From Escherichia coli (GTDB taxonomy: Bacteria > Pseudomonadota > Gammaproteobacteria > Enterobacterales > Enterobacteriaceae), in the NCBI RefSeq assembly GCF_003334815.1, contig NZ_QOWO01000022.1: a DNA stretch of 64,000 bases. One strand, written 5' to 3'. Shown here piece after piece: positions 54,001-60,000 of the stretch. Position numbers: made by a program. Numbering within the stretch: the first letter of the stretch is position 1; each line of letters begins with the position of its first letter.

Positions 54001-57000
54001 CCAGCGGGCCAGTCCGTCCTTCAGCGTGGTCCCTTTTTCCATTTTCCACTGCCGTGGCGGTGTGACCTTCTGTGGTGGTGGCGCTACCGGTTTCGTGACC
54101 ACCGGGGCTGGCGTGGTTGTGCGGGGCGCAGATGTACCGGATGTCCCTGTTGTGCTCTGAACCCGGGAAGCGCTGACGGCAGGTGGTACCTGTGCCTGGT
54201 CTGCCGCTGTTCCGGTTGTGCTCCTGAACGGATTACGTGGTGTGTCCGCTGTTTTCTGTGAACCCTGCGGTGCCGTGAGGTCAACAGGCGGTGCTGCAGT
54301 GGTCGTGACAGTCAGTATTTTCCTGTTCCAGTCCATATGTCCGTACAGTTGCTGCCCGGTCAGCAGAGTATTCAGTGCCCGGTGCCACTGGTCATTAACG
54401 GACCAGACGGGGAGGCGTTTGTTCAGTGCCGGTATGGCAGCGTTCTGTTGCCGGAACTGCCAGCCGGGTGGCAGCAACTGGCGTATCCAGTCACTGACGG
54501 AGCGCTGACGTGCCTCACGTAAATAAACGACGGATGACTGACCGGGTTTACCGGTCATAACCAGTGCGGGCAGCTGTGTGGCCTGAAGGAGCGGGCGGGG
54601 AGGCAGTGCGGTACTCTGGCTGCTGACTGCGGTTGTGGGCGTCGCTGTTGTTGTCGGGCGGGGCGGCGTCACAGGGCGGGTCACCGGTGGCGGAAGCAGA
54701 CGTTTTTGCGTATGGGCGATAATGGCAGCGCTTTCGCGAATTTGTCCGTCGACGAACACCAGAGCCGGAGGTGTGGTGTCAGGAACAGGCGTGGCATTAA
54801 ATGCCGTACAGCCGCTGAGTAATGACGGCAGAAGGAGTGTAAGTGATTTTTTTTGCATAGAATAAAATCCGGTATATTACGGGTTACGGTATAAGACAGG
54901 TGGCGGGTAACTGGCCTTCAGATGAATATCATTTCATCGGGTTATTGATAATGAACGTTCATGTTCGTGGGGGGATTATAAGAGTGAATTGCATTTTAGA
55001 ACGGGAGCATTATTTTATTTCTTGCCTGTTATTGAAACATTTCCGGTTATGATCTCCGAATGGCAGGTATCAATAAAATCACTTTTCCCCGATTGTGTGT
55101 CAAAGTCAACGTGGGTGAACCTGTGTACATCCTGCCATATGGCGAAACAGACAGGACAGGTAACAGGTAGTTTGCCTTCAGCTATTTTTTCGCAGCTTTC
55201 AACCAGTTGCTGCGCCTTGTTGTATCTGACGTTATAGCCATTTGTGCAAAGCGTTTCATACCCATGAGCTCCTGTAACTATATGTGTGGCGATTCTTTCG
55301 TGGACTCTCCCATTAATTAATAATTGTTCACGCGTTGTGATTGTTCTCATGCCTGTTTCTCTGTTGGTCATAACATAAAATAATCTGCATTCCTGAAAAA
55401 TATCTCGGTTGTGAAATATTTAATTTTTATCCCCCTTTTCTGAGGGATAAAAAGCAGGCTGTCAGGCTATAACTGAACGCGGTTTCTGGATTTTGGTGCT
55501 AATGTCACATCTTTCCATTCACAGCTGCTTCCGGGTATACGCTCTTTGCGTCGTATTATACGGGAGTTCTGACACACAATAATTAAGCCATTGTCTGCCG
55601 TCTGAAATGGCATTATAGCGATGTTTATATCTTCTGTTGCAGGAATATAACTGACTTTCTTTTCACATGTATTGGTGTATATGACAACTCTGAATTTTTC
55701 TGCGGACATTTTCAATCCTCTTTTAAACCAGAATATCCCGTGAGGGCATTCTTTGTGAAAAAGATGCCGGAAAAATTCCGGCACGGGGATTAAACCTGTT
55801 GTGGTTCTGAGTTATCCGGAGCGGTTACCGGTTCGCTGACATCCGGAACCTTTTCCGGGGCAGGCATGACCAGTGGACGTGTCAGGGCTGTAAGTCCTTC
55901 ACCGGATAACCCCACCTCCTTCAGCAGGGAGTCGATGAGCGGAGCCTGTGTTCGGTAAGCCAGAGCGGCGGTTACCGCCTGTTCAGCGAGATTTCCGCCA
56001 CTTATGTCGGTTGTTGCTGTTTTACCGCGGGTAACACCGCCATTCAGGCCATCCACCTGAATGATTTTAATGCCGTCAATGGATTTCATTGGTTCTGTGG
56101 ACTTCTCTATGACGGCAGGTAATGCATCCAGCAGAGCAAGACGGAACCGAAGGCTGGTCTGCTCATCCGAAAGCACGTTAATGGCATCGTTCAGTGCGCG
56201 CTGTGCTTCCGCTTCTGCCAGACCTTTCTGACGGGTGGCCTCCGCCAGTTCAATAATTGCTGCTGCCTGGAGTTCGGCTGCTTCTTTTTCAGCCTGGGCG
56301 CGAACCGTCAGTTCAACCGCCTTCGTTTCAGCTTCCTGAGCAGCAGCAATCAGGGCAACCTGTTTGGTACGGTCGGCCTCCGCAGTCTGGCGGGTGGTTT
56401 CCACATCCTGCTGGGCCTGTACGGCTTCAGCCAGTGCTTTACTTGCCCGGGCTTCTGCCTGTGACTGCTCTTCCGATTTTGCCGCCACGGCAATGGCTCT
56501 GGCCTGGCTGGCGATTTCGGTTGCCTGCTGTTGCTCAATTTCCCGTATGGCTACTTCCCGTTCGGCTTCGACCTGGCGGGTACGCACTATCTGCTGTCGT
56601 TCGATTTCGGCTTCCTCTATCTTACGTTCAGCCAGAATTCGCGCGGATTCTGCTTCACGACGTCGTTCAGCTTCAATAGCAGCAATACTGGCACTCTGCT
56701 CTGCCGTACGGGTTTTTACCCGTTGTTGTTGCTCCAGAGTCATGAAGGCTTCCTGCTGTTCAATCTCCAGACGTCGGGAGAGTGCATCCCGGTTTTTTTC
56801 CCTGATGGCCACTTCAACATCCTGCTCAACTTCGTTACGTTCGCGGCGACGACGTTCTGTTTCCTGGGTCAGAAGGGTCAGGCCTTCAGCATCAAAGGCA
56901 TTGTCAGGATTAAAATGTTCCCGTGCAGTCTGGTTGAAACTTGTCAGCGACACACTTTCAAGCTCCAGACCGTTTTTGGATAAGTCTTCCGCAACGGTGT

Positions 57001-60000
57001 TCTGCACACCCTGAACAAAGTTCTCGCGGGCATCCTGTAAATCCTGCATGCTCATTCTGGCCGCCGTGGCCCGCAGGGCATCAACAAATTTATCCTCGAC
57101 CAGACTACGCAGATCTTCAGGTGTGAGCGTGCGTTGTCCCAGCGTCTGGGCTGCAGTGGATATTCCTTCGGCTGATGGTTTTACCCGAAGAAAAAAGGCA
57201 ACGGCAACATCAACACGCATGCGGTCGCGGGTAATGAGACTTTCAGCCGCTGCACGACTGACTTCCAGCTTCAGGGTGTTCATGTTGACGGGAATTGTTT
57301 CGTGAAAAATGGGCATAACAATTGCGCCGCCACTCATTACCACTTTTTGGCCTCCCAGACCTGTGCGGACAAAGGCCTGCTCTGCCGATGCCCGACGGTA
57401 CAGGCGGGCAAATATCAGCCCGATAACGAACAGGGTGAGGACCAGCGCAATAACGGTAAACAACCATCCCGGAAGATTAAACATAGTGAGAACCTCTGTA
57501 TATGTCGGGATTAAAGAACATCCGGCCAGGGATTCAGTTCGCCCAGCCAGCGGGAACCGGAAAGACGGCAGACAATAATCACTTTGTCTCCTCGTCTGAA
57601 TTCTTTCCCGGCCTCCGGCTCCAGCAACAGGTAATGAACCTGCCCAAAGCGGTCTGTGAAGCGACCTTCACAGGGGGAACCCGCCACTGCGTGATAACCG
57701 GTGATGGTGGCCATACACCCGATGAAAGCCTCCTCGGTGAGCGCCGTTGTTTCATCACGGGGTAACCAGGGGGCAATCAGTCTGCCGGTGCGGTGTACGA
57801 GAGGACATGTCAGCAGCAGGCAAAGTGGTGCAAGGAGAATGTTCGGGGCTGGAGCCTGCAGCAGATGAATAATAAGACCCTGCAGGAGAATGCCGGATAT
57901 ACCAAAAAAACCTGCCAGCATACAGAGGACGATCAGCAGGGGGATCCGTCCGATGTTCAGCCAGTCCAGCGCCTCTCCTGTCAGCCCCTCCGGTAAATCA
58001 GGTGTATCCATAGCTGAAGAGAGGGAGTGTCCGCAGAGCAGGGCGATAAGTTCAGCGATACCAGTAAGCAGAACAAAAGTCAGGGCTGCCAGATAGGGTG
58101 CGTTATACGCGGTAAGTAACGTCAGTGTCATTTTTCCTCCTGTGGCAGGTCAGTCAAACAACATTATGGCGTGAAGCTTCCGCTTCTTTAATTGTCAGAA
58201 GAAGCATATCGTCAGTCATCAGAAGACAAGGGGATGTCTGCAGGAGGGGATGATAACAACAGAAGCCTCACGCCGGAATGCGCTTTATGACAACCGGAGA
58301 GGACGGATAATAAAAAATGGGACATCCACATCAGCAAACCGCGATTTGCGAAAAAAAGTCAGCGGAGAGTGGCTGCCGTTGTGGCTGTCCCGGTATTTCA
58401 GTGTAACAGGTGATTGCTGTGATCTATGCCCCATTCGGCTTTCGGTAAACCTGAATGCCCCACATGAAGAATGCGTGACAGCATGTTTCTGCCGCTGCCG
58501 TTCAGGCTGCATTCGCGTCCGTGCGCGAGTATAAAACCTTCATCCCGGAATATCTCTTCCACTTCTGAAGATTCGAGGGATGCCGGATGAATTAATGAAA
58601 ATGCCACCGGTCTGAGCATTCTGCCCGTGGTGGAAAAGGTGTCTCTGGTACTGTTCAGCTGCAGGATATGACGTTTACCTGTTTGCGCACGGGAAAGTGT
58701 CTCACTCAGCAGCTGGTCGTTCCATGCGCACGTGCCAATCTGCCATCCCAGACTTCTGCACGCGGAAAGAGCCGAGCGGAAGCGGTACAGGTCGTATAAT
58801 GCTGCGTTATTGCCACTTTCCAGCAGTGATTTCAGGGTGTTTGCTACCGGTATGTCTGAATTGGTGGCCAGCAGTTTTCGCAGGGTAGTGAACTCTTCAG
58901 CCATTCCTCTGAACTCGCGCATCTGACGGGCAGTGTCAAGCCAGTTCAGCAGGTAACGCCGGCGACGCCGTTCGTTGTTTATGTTGTCCGGGGCGGTGGA
59001 GAGTGCTTCGAGCATATTCTCCAGTAACAGAATGACAGGGTTTTCCTGGGATAGAATGGTCATAAAGGCGTCCTGAAAAAATGCCCGACAGCCGCTCTCC
59101 GTACACCCTCAGGTGTCACCGGTGCCGGGCATTGTGGAAACAGAAGGGAAAAAAATCCCGGCCATAAAGGCCGGGAAAAGTCGTCAAATTAAGACAGCAA
59201 TTTTCATGTCAACGCTCCGTCATCAGATACCAGGTGCAGGAGCAGGGCGATCCTCGACTCCGGCAGAGGCTGTGCATCAAGCCGGAGGAGGTACTGGTAA
59301 CGCGCTTTTGTCAGCCAGAGGGTGGAGGCAGCATCCAGCTCCTCCCTGGCTGCCGGATTGAGCGCAGGATCCGGGTACACTTTCATCAAAGACTGAACGA
59401 TATCCTCCCTGACGGTTTTGATTTCACCGGCCATTTTCACGAAGTCCAGAAAGGCACTGTGACGGCGAAGGTGAGTGAAGCTGTGGCGTTCGGGGTCTGC
59501 TTTCAGGAAAAAGTAACCGGGAAACACGGCGTGTATATGTCGACGGTAACCACAGACTTTATCCGTGCGGCGGACCTTTTTCAGTATCAGGGGTGTCCAG
59601 GGAAGGACGTGTTGTTCGGAAAGCCAGGAAAAGAGATGTTCGCGGTTTTTGCCGGCAGGGATGTACTGAGCCAGATACCAGTTGCGTTGATGTAATTCAC
59701 TGATATTCAAAATCCGGAACGCTCCGCGAAAATCGATCCCCGCAGAGGGGCTTCGATGTTGTTGTGAACGGCGAATACATAAAGCATGTGTCGGAAACAG
59801 CGGCTGACCCTCGTTCAGCCCGGCCTGCAGTTCTGACAGGCACATGATTTACGCACTCTTGTAAGCCTTGTGGACGGTTTCGAGGCGGGCGAAAACCGAC
59901 AACTCCTGCAAACAGGATTAATGGCTGGCAAATATATTACATAAGGATGTATCTGTGGCAAGAGTGAAGATAAGCAGTTAAATAGATCGTTATATTTGAT

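What the first reader, a model, noticed from the sequence alone, without database searches (positions are those of the whole stretch)
55790..58131. yqiJ-yqiK (NfeD/SPFH flotillin-like) pair embedded upstream of the pil operon
A pair closely resembling the chromosomal E. coli yqiJK operon sits between the regulatory genes and pilL on the same strand. SPFH/NfeD pairs organise membrane microdomains; here it could have been captured from a chromosome or serve pilus or T4SS assembly.
Basis: partly seen in the sequence, partly recalled or inferred. Interest (0 to 1): 0.35.

Follow-up and report, generated by a model that had tools for sequence, protein, structure and literature searches.

The report
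Plasmid-borne flotillin pair yqiJK
A conjugative resistance plasmid carries its own old, well-conserved copy of the bacterial flotillin gene pair yqiJ-yqiK between its transfer regulators and its thin-pilus genes; the pair is real but already annotated, often deleted in nature, and not needed for plasmid transfer.

Summary
On the minus strand, yqiJ (57511-58131, 206 aa; Pfam YqiJ_N + YqiJ_OB) and yqiK (55790-57484, 564 aa; Band_7 + Flot) lie between traB/traC and pilI/pilL. The plasmid types as IncK2/Z, so it is I-complex but not R64-type IncI1. "Closely resembling E. coli yqiJK" is overstated: YqiK is 82% and YqiJ only 55% identical to K-12, and the best chromosomal YqiJ found is about 62% (Citrobacter). 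In trees the plasmid copies sit outside all sampled enterobacterial chromosomal copies. A divergent plasmid contig has the same traB-traC-yqiJ-yqiK-pilI order; synonymous divergence matches the backbone, and dN/dS is 0.10 (yqiJ) and 0.04 (yqiK). This indicates long plasmid residence under purifying selection, not recent capture or misassembly. About 250 PLSDB plasmids carry the intact pair. Others lost it by at least three routes: a 10-bp-repeat fusion deletion, an ISEc23-associated deletion, and a compound deletion. pCT and pMS7163B carry the fusion deletion yet conjugate, and pCT's thin pilus works, so the pair is not required for pilus or T4SS function. Most likely it is an accessory inner-membrane scaffold expressed with the transfer genes. 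Its function has not been tested. Published plasmid maps already label it. Interest is low to moderate.

The parts
57511..58131 (-). yqiJ: 206-aa inner-membrane protein with a hydrophobic N-terminal domain and a C-terminal NfeD-like OB-fold
   Evidence: ORF. Pfam YqiJ_N (residues 10-112) and YqiJ_OB (136-189). 55% aa identity to K-12 YqiJ over the full length. Three to four hydropathy peaks within residues 14-112. AGGAGG ribosome-binding site 5 nt upstream of the ATG.
55790..57484 (-). yqiK: 564-aa flotillin-type SPFH protein with an N-terminal membrane anchor, SPFH domain, Ala/Glu-rich coiled-coil region and Flot C-terminal domain
   Evidence: ORF. Pfam Band_7 (35-200) and Flot (402-526). NCBIfam FloT model matched below its cut-off (83 bits against 700). 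82% aa identity to K-12 YqiK. A single hydrophobic segment at residues 8-26, and 62% A+E+Q+R+K over residues 201-470.
55764..55784 (-). Terminator-like hairpin 5 nt after the yqiK stop codon: 9-bp stem, 3-nt loop, then CUUUUUCACA
   Evidence: Found by the scan. Folds at -13.4 kcal/mol with z = -3.4. Conserved in the divergent plasmid contig L023, with a compensatory A-U to G-C change in the stem. The GTG start of the long pilI ORF lies inside this hairpin, which favours the ATG at 55709 as the true pilI start.
58132..58397 (-). 266-bp traC-yqiJ spacer; kept in the deletion derivatives, absent from L023, where traC overlaps yqiJ
   Evidence: Sequence and alignment. L023 coordinates. No convincing sigma-70 promoter for yqiJ was found: the only hit overlaps the start codon.
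58079..58088 (.). 10-bp direct repeat GTCAGGGCTG inside yqiJ; together with its partner it defines the common fusion deletion
   Evidence: Exact repeat coordinates. Junction seen in pSH286-2 and pCT.
55881..55890 (.). Partner copy of the 10-bp direct repeat GTCAGGGCTG, near the 3' end of yqiK
   Evidence: Recombination between the two copies yields the 47-aa in-frame YqiJ'-'YqiK remnant MTLTLLTAYNAPYLAALTRPLVMPAPEK....
58398..59063 (-). traC, a transfer-gene regulator (context gene, upstream)
   Evidence: ORF. Annotated as traC in identical plasmids. Required for conjugation in pMS7163B TraDIS, LogFC -5.3.
59204..59845 (-). traB, a NusG/RfaH-like transcription elongation factor (context gene, upstream)
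   Evidence: Weak NCBIfam RfaH hits at 1e-9. Annotated as NusG family. TraDIS LogFC -5.4.
55467..55709 (-). pilI (context gene, downstream); the first gene after the hairpin
   Evidence: RefSeq annotates an 80-aa PilI. GAGGA ribosome-binding site upstream of the ATG at 55709.

Best explanation
This is a plasmid-resident paralogue of the enterobacterial yqiJ-yqiK operon. YqiK is a flotillin-type SPFH protein anchored in the inner membrane by one N-terminal helix. By analogy with other SPFH proteins, it should assemble into large oligomeric scaffolds on the cytoplasmic face. YqiJ is its polytopic membrane partner with an NfeD-like OB-fold. What is shown: the pair is a compact two-gene unit with its own ribosome-binding sites and a conserved 3' hairpin. 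It sits directly downstream of the traB-traC regulators and upstream of pilI. It has resided in I-complex plasmids long enough to accumulate about 0.6-0.8 synonymous changes per site between lineages, and it has stayed under strong purifying selection. It travels with the K/B/O/Z-type traBC-pilI module, not with a particular pil operon. It has been lost repeatedly, and it is not required for conjugation or for thin-pilus-dependent liquid mating. What is inferred: it is transcribed with or just after traBC, so it would be made in transfer-competent donor cells. There it would act as a dispensable membrane scaffold or chaperone that stabilises membrane proteins or buffers envelope stress when the secretin-containing type IV pilus and the T4SS are produced. 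Its benefit would then be conditional, in fitness or efficiency, and not an essential assembly function.
For: Identity: Pfam domains and full-length collinear alignment with K-12 YqiJ and YqiK. Long residence and selection: the divergent plasmid contig L023 has the same traB-traC-yqiJ-yqiK-pilI order. Between L023 and the window, dS for yqiJ (0.62) and yqiK (0.80) is similar to traB (0.54) and traC (0.72), and dN/dS is 0.105 and 0.042 against 0.21-0.22 for traB/traC. YqiK reads as one intact tblastn segment in 266 plasmids, 248 of them at 99% identity or more. Linkage to the regulatory module: L023 combines this module with R64-like pilK-pilP genes, with PilN 95% identical to R64. Carriers occur with IncK2/Z, IncI-gamma/K1 and IncI1/B/O replicons. 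Co-expression hint: in L023, traC overlaps the yqiJ start by 29 nt, and all genes are on one strand. Dispensability: pCT and pMS7163B carry the fusion deletion. pCT transfers on solid media and in liquid, and pilS::aph lowers its liquid transfer (PMC4083329). pMS7163B is proficient in surface conjugation (PMC10286972). Mechanistic precedent from the literature: S. aureus FloA-NfeD stabilises unfolded membrane proteins (PMC11222466), FloA scaffolding aids type VII secretion assembly (PMC5718613), and an SPFH protein links PspA to the membrane in B. subtilis (PMC8581546).
Against: There is no direct expression or phenotype data for the plasmid copy, and none was found in the literature. The chromosomal E. 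coli yqiK deletion has little or no phenotype, and native YqiK-GFP was undetectable (PMC10434171; PMC2636767). More than half of related plasmids have lost the pair by several routes, so any benefit must be small or conditional. In the window a 266-bp spacer separates traC from yqiJ, and a hairpin separates yqiK from pilI, so operon membership is unproven. The envelope-stress role rests on analogy with Gram-positive flotillins.
Confidence: 0.5

Rival explanations
1. Dedicated assembly factor: the flotillin scaffold is needed to assemble the thin type IV pilus or the I-type T4SS.
For: The pair sits between the transfer regulators and the pil operon on the same strand. There is a precedent for flotillin aiding secretion-system assembly in S. 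aureus (PMC5718613). pMS7163B, which lacks the pair, has very low liquid transfer, about 2e-6, although that plasmid is wild-type repressed and no comparison exists.
Against: pCT carries the yqiJ'-'yqiK fusion deletion, yet it transfers on solid media and in liquid, and its liquid transfer depends on pilS. pMS7163B also lacks the pair and conjugates on surfaces. R64, the model for thin-pilus biology, has no yqiJK. In L023 the pair is linked to a quite different, R64-like pil operon, so it is not co-adapted to one pilus machine.
Confidence: 0.12
2. Recently captured chromosomal cargo that is neutral and decaying: a hitch-hiker with no plasmid-related function.
For: The pair has been lost repeatedly by at least three or four independent routes. 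This slot tolerates other cargo, such as traD in R64 and a TonB-receptor insertion in L028.
Against: No chromosomal copy exceeds about 63% (YqiJ) or about 83% (YqiK) identity. The plasmid clade lies outside the sampled chromosomal clade. dS between plasmid lineages equals that of the backbone genes, and dN/dS is 0.04-0.10. The reading frame is intact in about 260 plasmids.
Confidence: 0.08
3. Host-phenotype modulator: the plasmid flotillin alters host motility, biofilm formation or antibiotic tolerance. One possible route is co-assembly with the 82%-identical chromosomal YqiK that nearly every E. coli host already has.
For: Chromosomal yqiK is present in 5,424 of 5,426 complete E. coli genomes, so carriers hold two paralogues. 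PMC7824781 proposed plasmid yqiK as a candidate for the reduced biofilm formation seen after IncK plasmid acquisition, citing the motility phenotype of a yqiK mutant.
Against: This is speculation in the source paper, with no mutant made. A quadruple SPFH mutant of K-12 showed no biofilm or adhesion phenotype attributable to yqiK.
Confidence: 0.15
4. Anti-phage defence or exclusion module carried by the plasmid.
For: Plasmids often carry defence genes near their transfer regions, and SPFH-domain proteins occur in some candidate defence systems (general knowledge, not tested here).
Against: Neither protein nor any neighbour matched a PADLOC model. No effector-type domain is present, only scaffold domains. 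The pair is orthologous in architecture to a housekeeping-type chromosomal operon.
Confidence: 0.03
5. Assembly artefact: a chromosomal segment wrongly joined to plasmid sequence.
For: None here. One PLSDB 'plasmid' (NZ_MG591698.1) does carry the true chromosomal glgS-yqiJK-hldE region, which shows that such records exist.
Against: The 3-kb segment with both junctions is 100% identical in many independent complete plasmids. It is about 75% identical to the E. coli chromosomal copy, over yqiK only. Its flanks are plasmid backbone on both sides.
Confidence: 0.01

Closest known systems
E. coli K-12 chromosomal yqiJ-yqiK operon (SPFH2/flotillin-like YqiK with NfeD-like YqiJ)
   Same: Same two-gene order, the same 26-nt intergenic spacer, the same Pfam architecture, full-length collinear alignment, and a terminator hairpin after yqiK.
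   Different: YqiJ is only 55% identical and YqiK 82%. GC content is 54.5% against 47.8%. The flanks differ (traC and pilI instead of glgS and ibs). The terminator sequence differs. The plasmid clade branches outside the sampled enterobacterial chromosomal clade.
Firmicute flotillin-NfeD pairs (B. subtilis YuaF-FloT/YuaG; S. aureus NfeD-FloA)
   Same: An SPFH scaffold encoded next to a membrane protein with an NfeD-type OB-fold. This is the proposed model for how the pair works: oligomeric membrane microdomains that stabilise client membrane proteins (PMC2636767, PMC11222466).
   Different: The relationship is only distant. The NCBIfam FloT model scores 83 bits against a 700-bit cut-off. Pfam assigns YqiJ_N/YqiJ_OB and not the NfeD family. 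No client proteins are known for YqiJK.
R64 (IncI1) traABCD-pilI region
   Same: Same backbone logic: NusG-like traB, then traC, then a non-essential accessory slot, then pilI and the pil operon, all on one strand.
   Different: In R64 the slot holds traD (188 aa), which is unrelated to YqiJ. R64 also has pilJ and pilK, whereas the window has a single unrelated 118-aa ORF. TraC is only 38% and PilI only 32% identical to the window's proteins.

Membership tests
SPFH / flotillin family (YqiK, FloT type) | SPFH (Band 7) domain | tested here: met
   Pfam PF01145, residues 35-200, E = 6e-19.
SPFH / flotillin family (YqiK, FloT type) | C-terminal flotillin domain preceded by an Ala/Glu-rich coiled-coil region | tested here: met
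   Pfam PF15975 Flot, residues 402-526, E = 1.3e-38. Residues 201-470 are 62% A+E+Q+R+K.
SPFH / flotillin family (YqiK, FloT type) | N-terminal membrane anchor | tested here: met
   A single strong hydropathy segment at residues 8-26, by a Kyte-Doolittle window. This is prediction only.
SPFH / flotillin family (YqiK, FloT type) | Equivalog of Bacillus FloT (NCBIfam NF058507) | tested here: not met
   Scores 83 bits against a curated cut-off of 700. The protein is a flotillin-family member but not a FloT equivalog.
SPFH / flotillin family (YqiK, FloT type) | Assembly into large membrane-associated oligomers or microdomains | not testable with these tools
   No sequence-level PDB relative was found. 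Testing needs BN-PAGE, cryo-EM or microscopy.
YqiJ family (NfeD-like partner of SPFH2 proteins) | YqiJ N-terminal membrane domain plus C-terminal OB-fold | tested here: met
   Pfam PF21001 (residues 10-112) and PF07290 (136-189). 55% identity to K-12 YqiJ over the full length.
YqiJ family (NfeD-like partner of SPFH2 proteins) | Encoded immediately upstream of its SPFH partner in one operon | tested here: met
   26-nt spacer on the same strand, as in K-12. The same pairing is seen in all 13 chromosomal loci examined.
NfeD family in the strict sense (Pfam NfeD) | Match to the Pfam NfeD model | tested here: not met
   The Pfam scan returned only YqiJ_N and YqiJ_OB. 'NfeD-like' rests on the structural argument in PMC2636767.
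Thin-pilus (pil) or transfer (tra) genes required for I-complex conjugation | Loss abolishes or strongly reduces transfer or pilus function | tested here: not met
   The natural deletion plasmids pCT and pMS7163B conjugate, and pCT shows pilS-dependent liquid transfer. No isogenic comparison exists.
Known anti-phage defence systems (PADLOC) | Match to a defence-system protein model | tested here: not met
   No PADLOC hits for YqiJ, YqiK, PilI, orf118 or TraC.

The most novel reading that the evidence does not exclude
The plasmid flotillin pair may be a transfer-linked fitness module. Made together with the TraB/TraC regulators, it would form membrane scaffolds that reduce the envelope damage or cost of producing the secretin-containing thin pilus and the T4SS, possibly after co-assembling with the host's own YqiK. 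That could explain strong purifying selection alongside frequent loss in lineages or niches where the cost does not matter. If so, it would be the first plasmid-encoded flotillin with a defined role in conjugation biology, and it would give E. coli YqiJK its first clear phenotype.
Probability: 0.25. Interest if true: 0.5.

Novelty: already known. Interest (0 to 1): 0.22.

Why it matters
YqiJK is one of the four SPFH systems of E. coli and still has no clear function. A plasmid lineage that has kept its own copy under strong purifying selection, next to the master regulators of transfer, offers a natural genetic handle. Intact and deleted alleles already exist in otherwise near-identical epidemic resistance plasmids: p3521 and IncK2/Z plasmids are intact, while pCT and pMS7163B are deleted. 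A practical point also follows. The best functional data sets for these plasmids, pCT mutagenesis and pMS7163B TraDIS, were both produced on backbones that had already lost the pair, so its contribution to transfer or fitness has never been measured. Beyond that, the finding is an ordinary, already annotated accessory gene pair.

Tried and rejected
1. I searched for an RfaH-type ops element (GGCGGTAGNNTG) upstream of yqiJ or pilI, because TraB is NusG/RfaH-like. None lies in 54.8-60 kb. The only exact match is at 39325-39336 on the plus strand, opposite to the transfer genes.
2. I tested whether the 266-bp traC-yqiJ spacer is homologous to R64's 267-bp traD-pilI spacer, which might indicate a shared pil promoter. 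The alignment is unconvincing.
3. R64 TraD against YqiJ, and orf118 against R64 PilK: no similarity in either case.
4. PADLOC defence models: no hits.
5. PDB sequence search for either protein: no hits, so I did not attempt structure-based arguments and ran no structure prediction.
6. I looked for expression data on the plasmid copy in the IncK1/IncK2 paper and in the 2026 IncK2 genomics paper. Nothing was held.
7. The simple promoter scan gave no credible yqiJ promoter; the single hit overlaps the start codon.
8. Donor search: the genome-contig scan depends on exact peptide words and returned only 14 loci. The 5.8-billion-protein search supports the gap between 88% and 63%, but an unsampled donor cannot be excluded.

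
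Full report
**1. What is at the coordinates**

- The first protein matches Pfam YqiJ_N and YqiJ_OB.
- The second matches Band_7/SPFH and Flot. It also gives a sub-threshold match to the NCBIfam FloT model, 83 bits against a cut-off of 700.
- Hydropathy shows one N-terminal anchor in YqiK and three to four hydrophobic segments in the N-terminal half of YqiJ, as in the K-12 proteins.
- Upstream on the same strand are a NusG/RfaH-like traB (59204-59845) and traC (58398-59063).
- Downstream are pilI (55467-55709), a 118-aa ORF, then pilL, pilM, pilN and the other pil genes.

**2. What plasmid this is**

The 3-kb segment is 100% identical to many complete plasmids typed IncK2/Z with MOBP and MPF_I. 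It is an I-complex plasmid, but not an R64-type IncI1. RefSeq annotates the two genes as 'OB-fold-containing protein' (or DUF1449/YqiJ family) and 'flotillin family protein'.

**3. Relationship to the chromosomal operon**

- Against K-12, YqiK is 82% and YqiJ 55% identical, both over the full length.
- At the DNA level only yqiK aligns, at about 75% identity. That chromosomal copy is present in 5,424 of 5,426 complete E. coli genomes.
- The architecture is the same, including the 26-nt spacer and a terminator hairpin after yqiK, although the hairpin sequences differ.
- GC content is 54.5% in the plasmid pair and 47.8% in K-12.
- A scan of one genome per species found the best chromosomal YqiJ at 60-62% identity, in Citrobacter.
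- A search of 5.8 billion proteins found nothing between an 88% variant and about 63%. The 63% protein lies in a chromosomal glgS-yqiJ-yqiK context.
- Neighbour-joining trees of both proteins place the plasmid copies as sister to all sampled enterobacterial chromosomal copies. This is a small sample with a single distant outgroup, so it is indicative only.

The pair is thus a distinct lineage, not a recent capture from E. coli.

**4. Evidence for long plasmid residence under selection**

The 88% YqiJ variant lies on a 15.6-kb metagenomic contig (L023) with the same order, traB-traC-yqiJ-yqiK-pilI. Nei-Gojobori estimates between the window and L023 are:

| Gene | dS | dN/dS |
|---|---|---|
| traB | 0.54 | 0.21 |
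| traC | 0.72 | 0.22 |
| yqiJ | 0.62 | 0.105 |
| yqiK | 0.80 | 0.042 |

- The pair has diverged in step with the backbone and is more constrained than the essential regulators next to it.
- L023 joins this module to R64-like pil genes: PilN is 95% identical to R64 but about 40% identical to the window's PilN. So yqiJK travels with the K/B/O/Z-type traBC-pilI module and not with one type of pilus machine.
- In L023, traC overlaps the yqiJ start by 29 nt, which suggests co-transcription there. In the window a 266-bp spacer intervenes.
- The hairpin after yqiK (55764-55784; -13.4 kcal/mol, z = -3.4) is conserved in L023 with a compensatory stem change.

**5. Distribution and loss**

- About 250 PLSDB records hold the intact pair. 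YqiK reads through as a single tblastn segment in 266 records, 248 of them at 99% identity or more.
- Carriers occur with IncK2/Z, IncI-gamma/K1 and IncI1/B/O (p3521) replicons.
- R64 has traD in this slot and no yqiJK, and TraD is unrelated to YqiJ.
- 228 of 5,426 complete E. coli genomes (4.2%) carry most of the plasmid-type pair.

Related plasmids without the pair show distinct scars:

| Loss allele | Example plasmids | What remains | PLSDB records |
|---|---|---|---|
| (a) In-frame yqiJ'-'yqiK fusion (47 aa) formed at the 10-bp direct repeat GTCAGGGCTG (58079-58088 and 55881-55890) | pSH286-2, pCT, pMS7163B | 47-aa fusion ORF | 96 |
| (b) Replacement of 55675-58133 | L005 | The terminal 33 bp of the IS66-family element ISEc23 | 117 |
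| (c) Compound deletion | pHNSD138-1 (L006) | A 181-bp internal yqiK fragment | 75 |
| (d) Truncation of yqiJ beside IS66-family genes | pO145-type EHEC plasmids | About 360 nt of the yqiJ 5' end | not counted |

The remnants show that the pair was ancestral in these backbones and was lost several times independently.

**6. Bearing on function**

- pCT carries deletion (a). It has been shown to transfer on solid media and in liquid, and a pilS knockout lowers its liquid transfer (PMC4083329; PMC3377399).
- pMS7163B is the subject of the only TraDIS map of a non-R64 I-complex plasmid. It also has the 144-nt remnant, listed as gene '160' at 13620-13763 (PMC10286972, Table A), and it conjugates on surfaces.
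- Thin-pilus and T4SS function therefore do not require yqiJK. It also means the pair has never been tested functionally.
- No PADLOC defence model matches.

The literature on the plasmid copy is limited to two items: a map label on Shigella IncB/O/K/Z plasmids (PMC8549364) and a speculation about biofilm and motility for IncK blaCMY-2 plasmids (PMC7824781). For the chromosomal genes, phenotypes are weak or absent (PMC10434171; PMC2636767).

**7. Most likely mechanism**

Shown: the pair is a conserved, self-contained bicistronic membrane-scaffold module, next to the transfer regulators, selected but dispensable.

Inferred: it is expressed in transfer-competent donors, and YqiK with YqiJ forms inner-membrane scaffolds that stabilise membrane proteins or buffer envelope stress while the pilus secretin and T4SS are produced. 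This rests on analogy with three systems:
- FloA-NfeD chaperoning of unfolded membrane proteins (PMC11222466).
- Flotillin-assisted type VII secretion assembly (PMC5718613).
- An SPFH protein that links PspA to the membrane (PMC8581546).

A conditional benefit would reconcile the low dN/dS with the frequent loss. I give this about 0.5 overall: high for identity and dispensability, low for the specific stress-buffer role.

Rival explanations, with my confidence in each:
- Quantitative pilus or T4SS helper: 0.12.
- Host-phenotype modulator, possibly through mixing with host YqiK: 0.15.
- Neutral decaying cargo: 0.08.
- Defence module: 0.03.
- Misassembly: 0.01.

**8. Novelty and verdict**

The gene pair, its family and its presence on these plasmids are already annotated and have been mentioned in print, so the finding itself is already known. 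The additions from this analysis are incremental:
- It is a distinct, old plasmid lineage.
- It is under purifying selection stronger than on traBC.
- It is linked to the traBC module and not to a particular pil type.
- At least three or four independent loss mechanisms can be recognised.
- The standard experimental plasmids are natural deletion mutants.

Interest is 0.22.

Noticed in passing
L005:3456-3489 (NZ_AP022263.1); compare L034:3501-3533: In one class of plasmids, yqiJK and the 5' end of pilI are replaced by a 33-34-bp palindrome, GTAAGCGTCAACGGAGCACCGTATTGACGCTTAC. This is the terminal sequence of the IS66-family element ISEc23 and matches about 1,700 PLSDB plasmids. It looks like the scar of an IS-mediated adjacent deletion.
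   Followed up: partly
PMC10286972 Table A (pMS7163B genes 160, pilI, 'pilK'); equivalent to window 55015-55890: In the published TraDIS screen, insertions in the yqiJ'-'yqiK remnant, pilI and the small ORF called pilK were enriched after surface conjugation (log2FC +2.6, +2.9 and +3.2). Most pilL-V genes were near neutral. The authors do not explain this. It hints that this short region restrains transfer or carries a polar regulatory effect.
   Followed up: no
L028:6597-9380 (NZ_CP027463.1): One carrier plasmid has a TonB-dependent receptor gene plus a DUF4198 gene inserted between traB and traC, so the regulatory region tolerates cargo at more than one point.
   Followed up: no
window 55015-55371 (-) and 54750-55750: The 118-aa ORF between pilI and pilL is curated as 'pilK' in PMC10286972, but it shows no similarity to R64 PilK and no family hit. 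It sits in an AT-rich dip (GC 0.39-0.44) compared with 0.53-0.60 on either side.
   Followed up: partly
window 55709-55784 (-): The longest pilI ORF starts at a GTG inside the post-yqiK hairpin. The ATG at 55709, which has a GAGGA ribosome-binding site, is the more plausible start, and database annotations disagree (80 aa against 105 aa).
   Followed up: partly
window 39325-39336 (+): This is the only exact match in the window to the RfaH ops consensus GGCGGTAGNNTG. It lies on the strand opposite to the surrounding transfer genes. It is probably chance (about 0.1 expected), but worth noting because TraB is RfaH-like.
   Followed up: no
L033 (NZ_MG591698.1, 77669-85290): A 354-kb PLSDB record labelled as a non-mobilizable plasmid carries the genuine chromosomal yqiH-yqiI-glgS-yqiJ-yqiK-ibs-hldE-glnE region. 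It is probably a chromosomal segment or a misassigned replicon.
   Followed up: no
window 49938-54858 compared with L008 (R64): The window's PilL-PilO proteins are only 22-42% identical to those of R64. By contrast, the metagenomic contig L023 combines R64-like pil genes with the window-type traBC-yqiJK-pilI module, which is evidence of modular recombination at the pilI/pilL boundary.
   Followed up: partly
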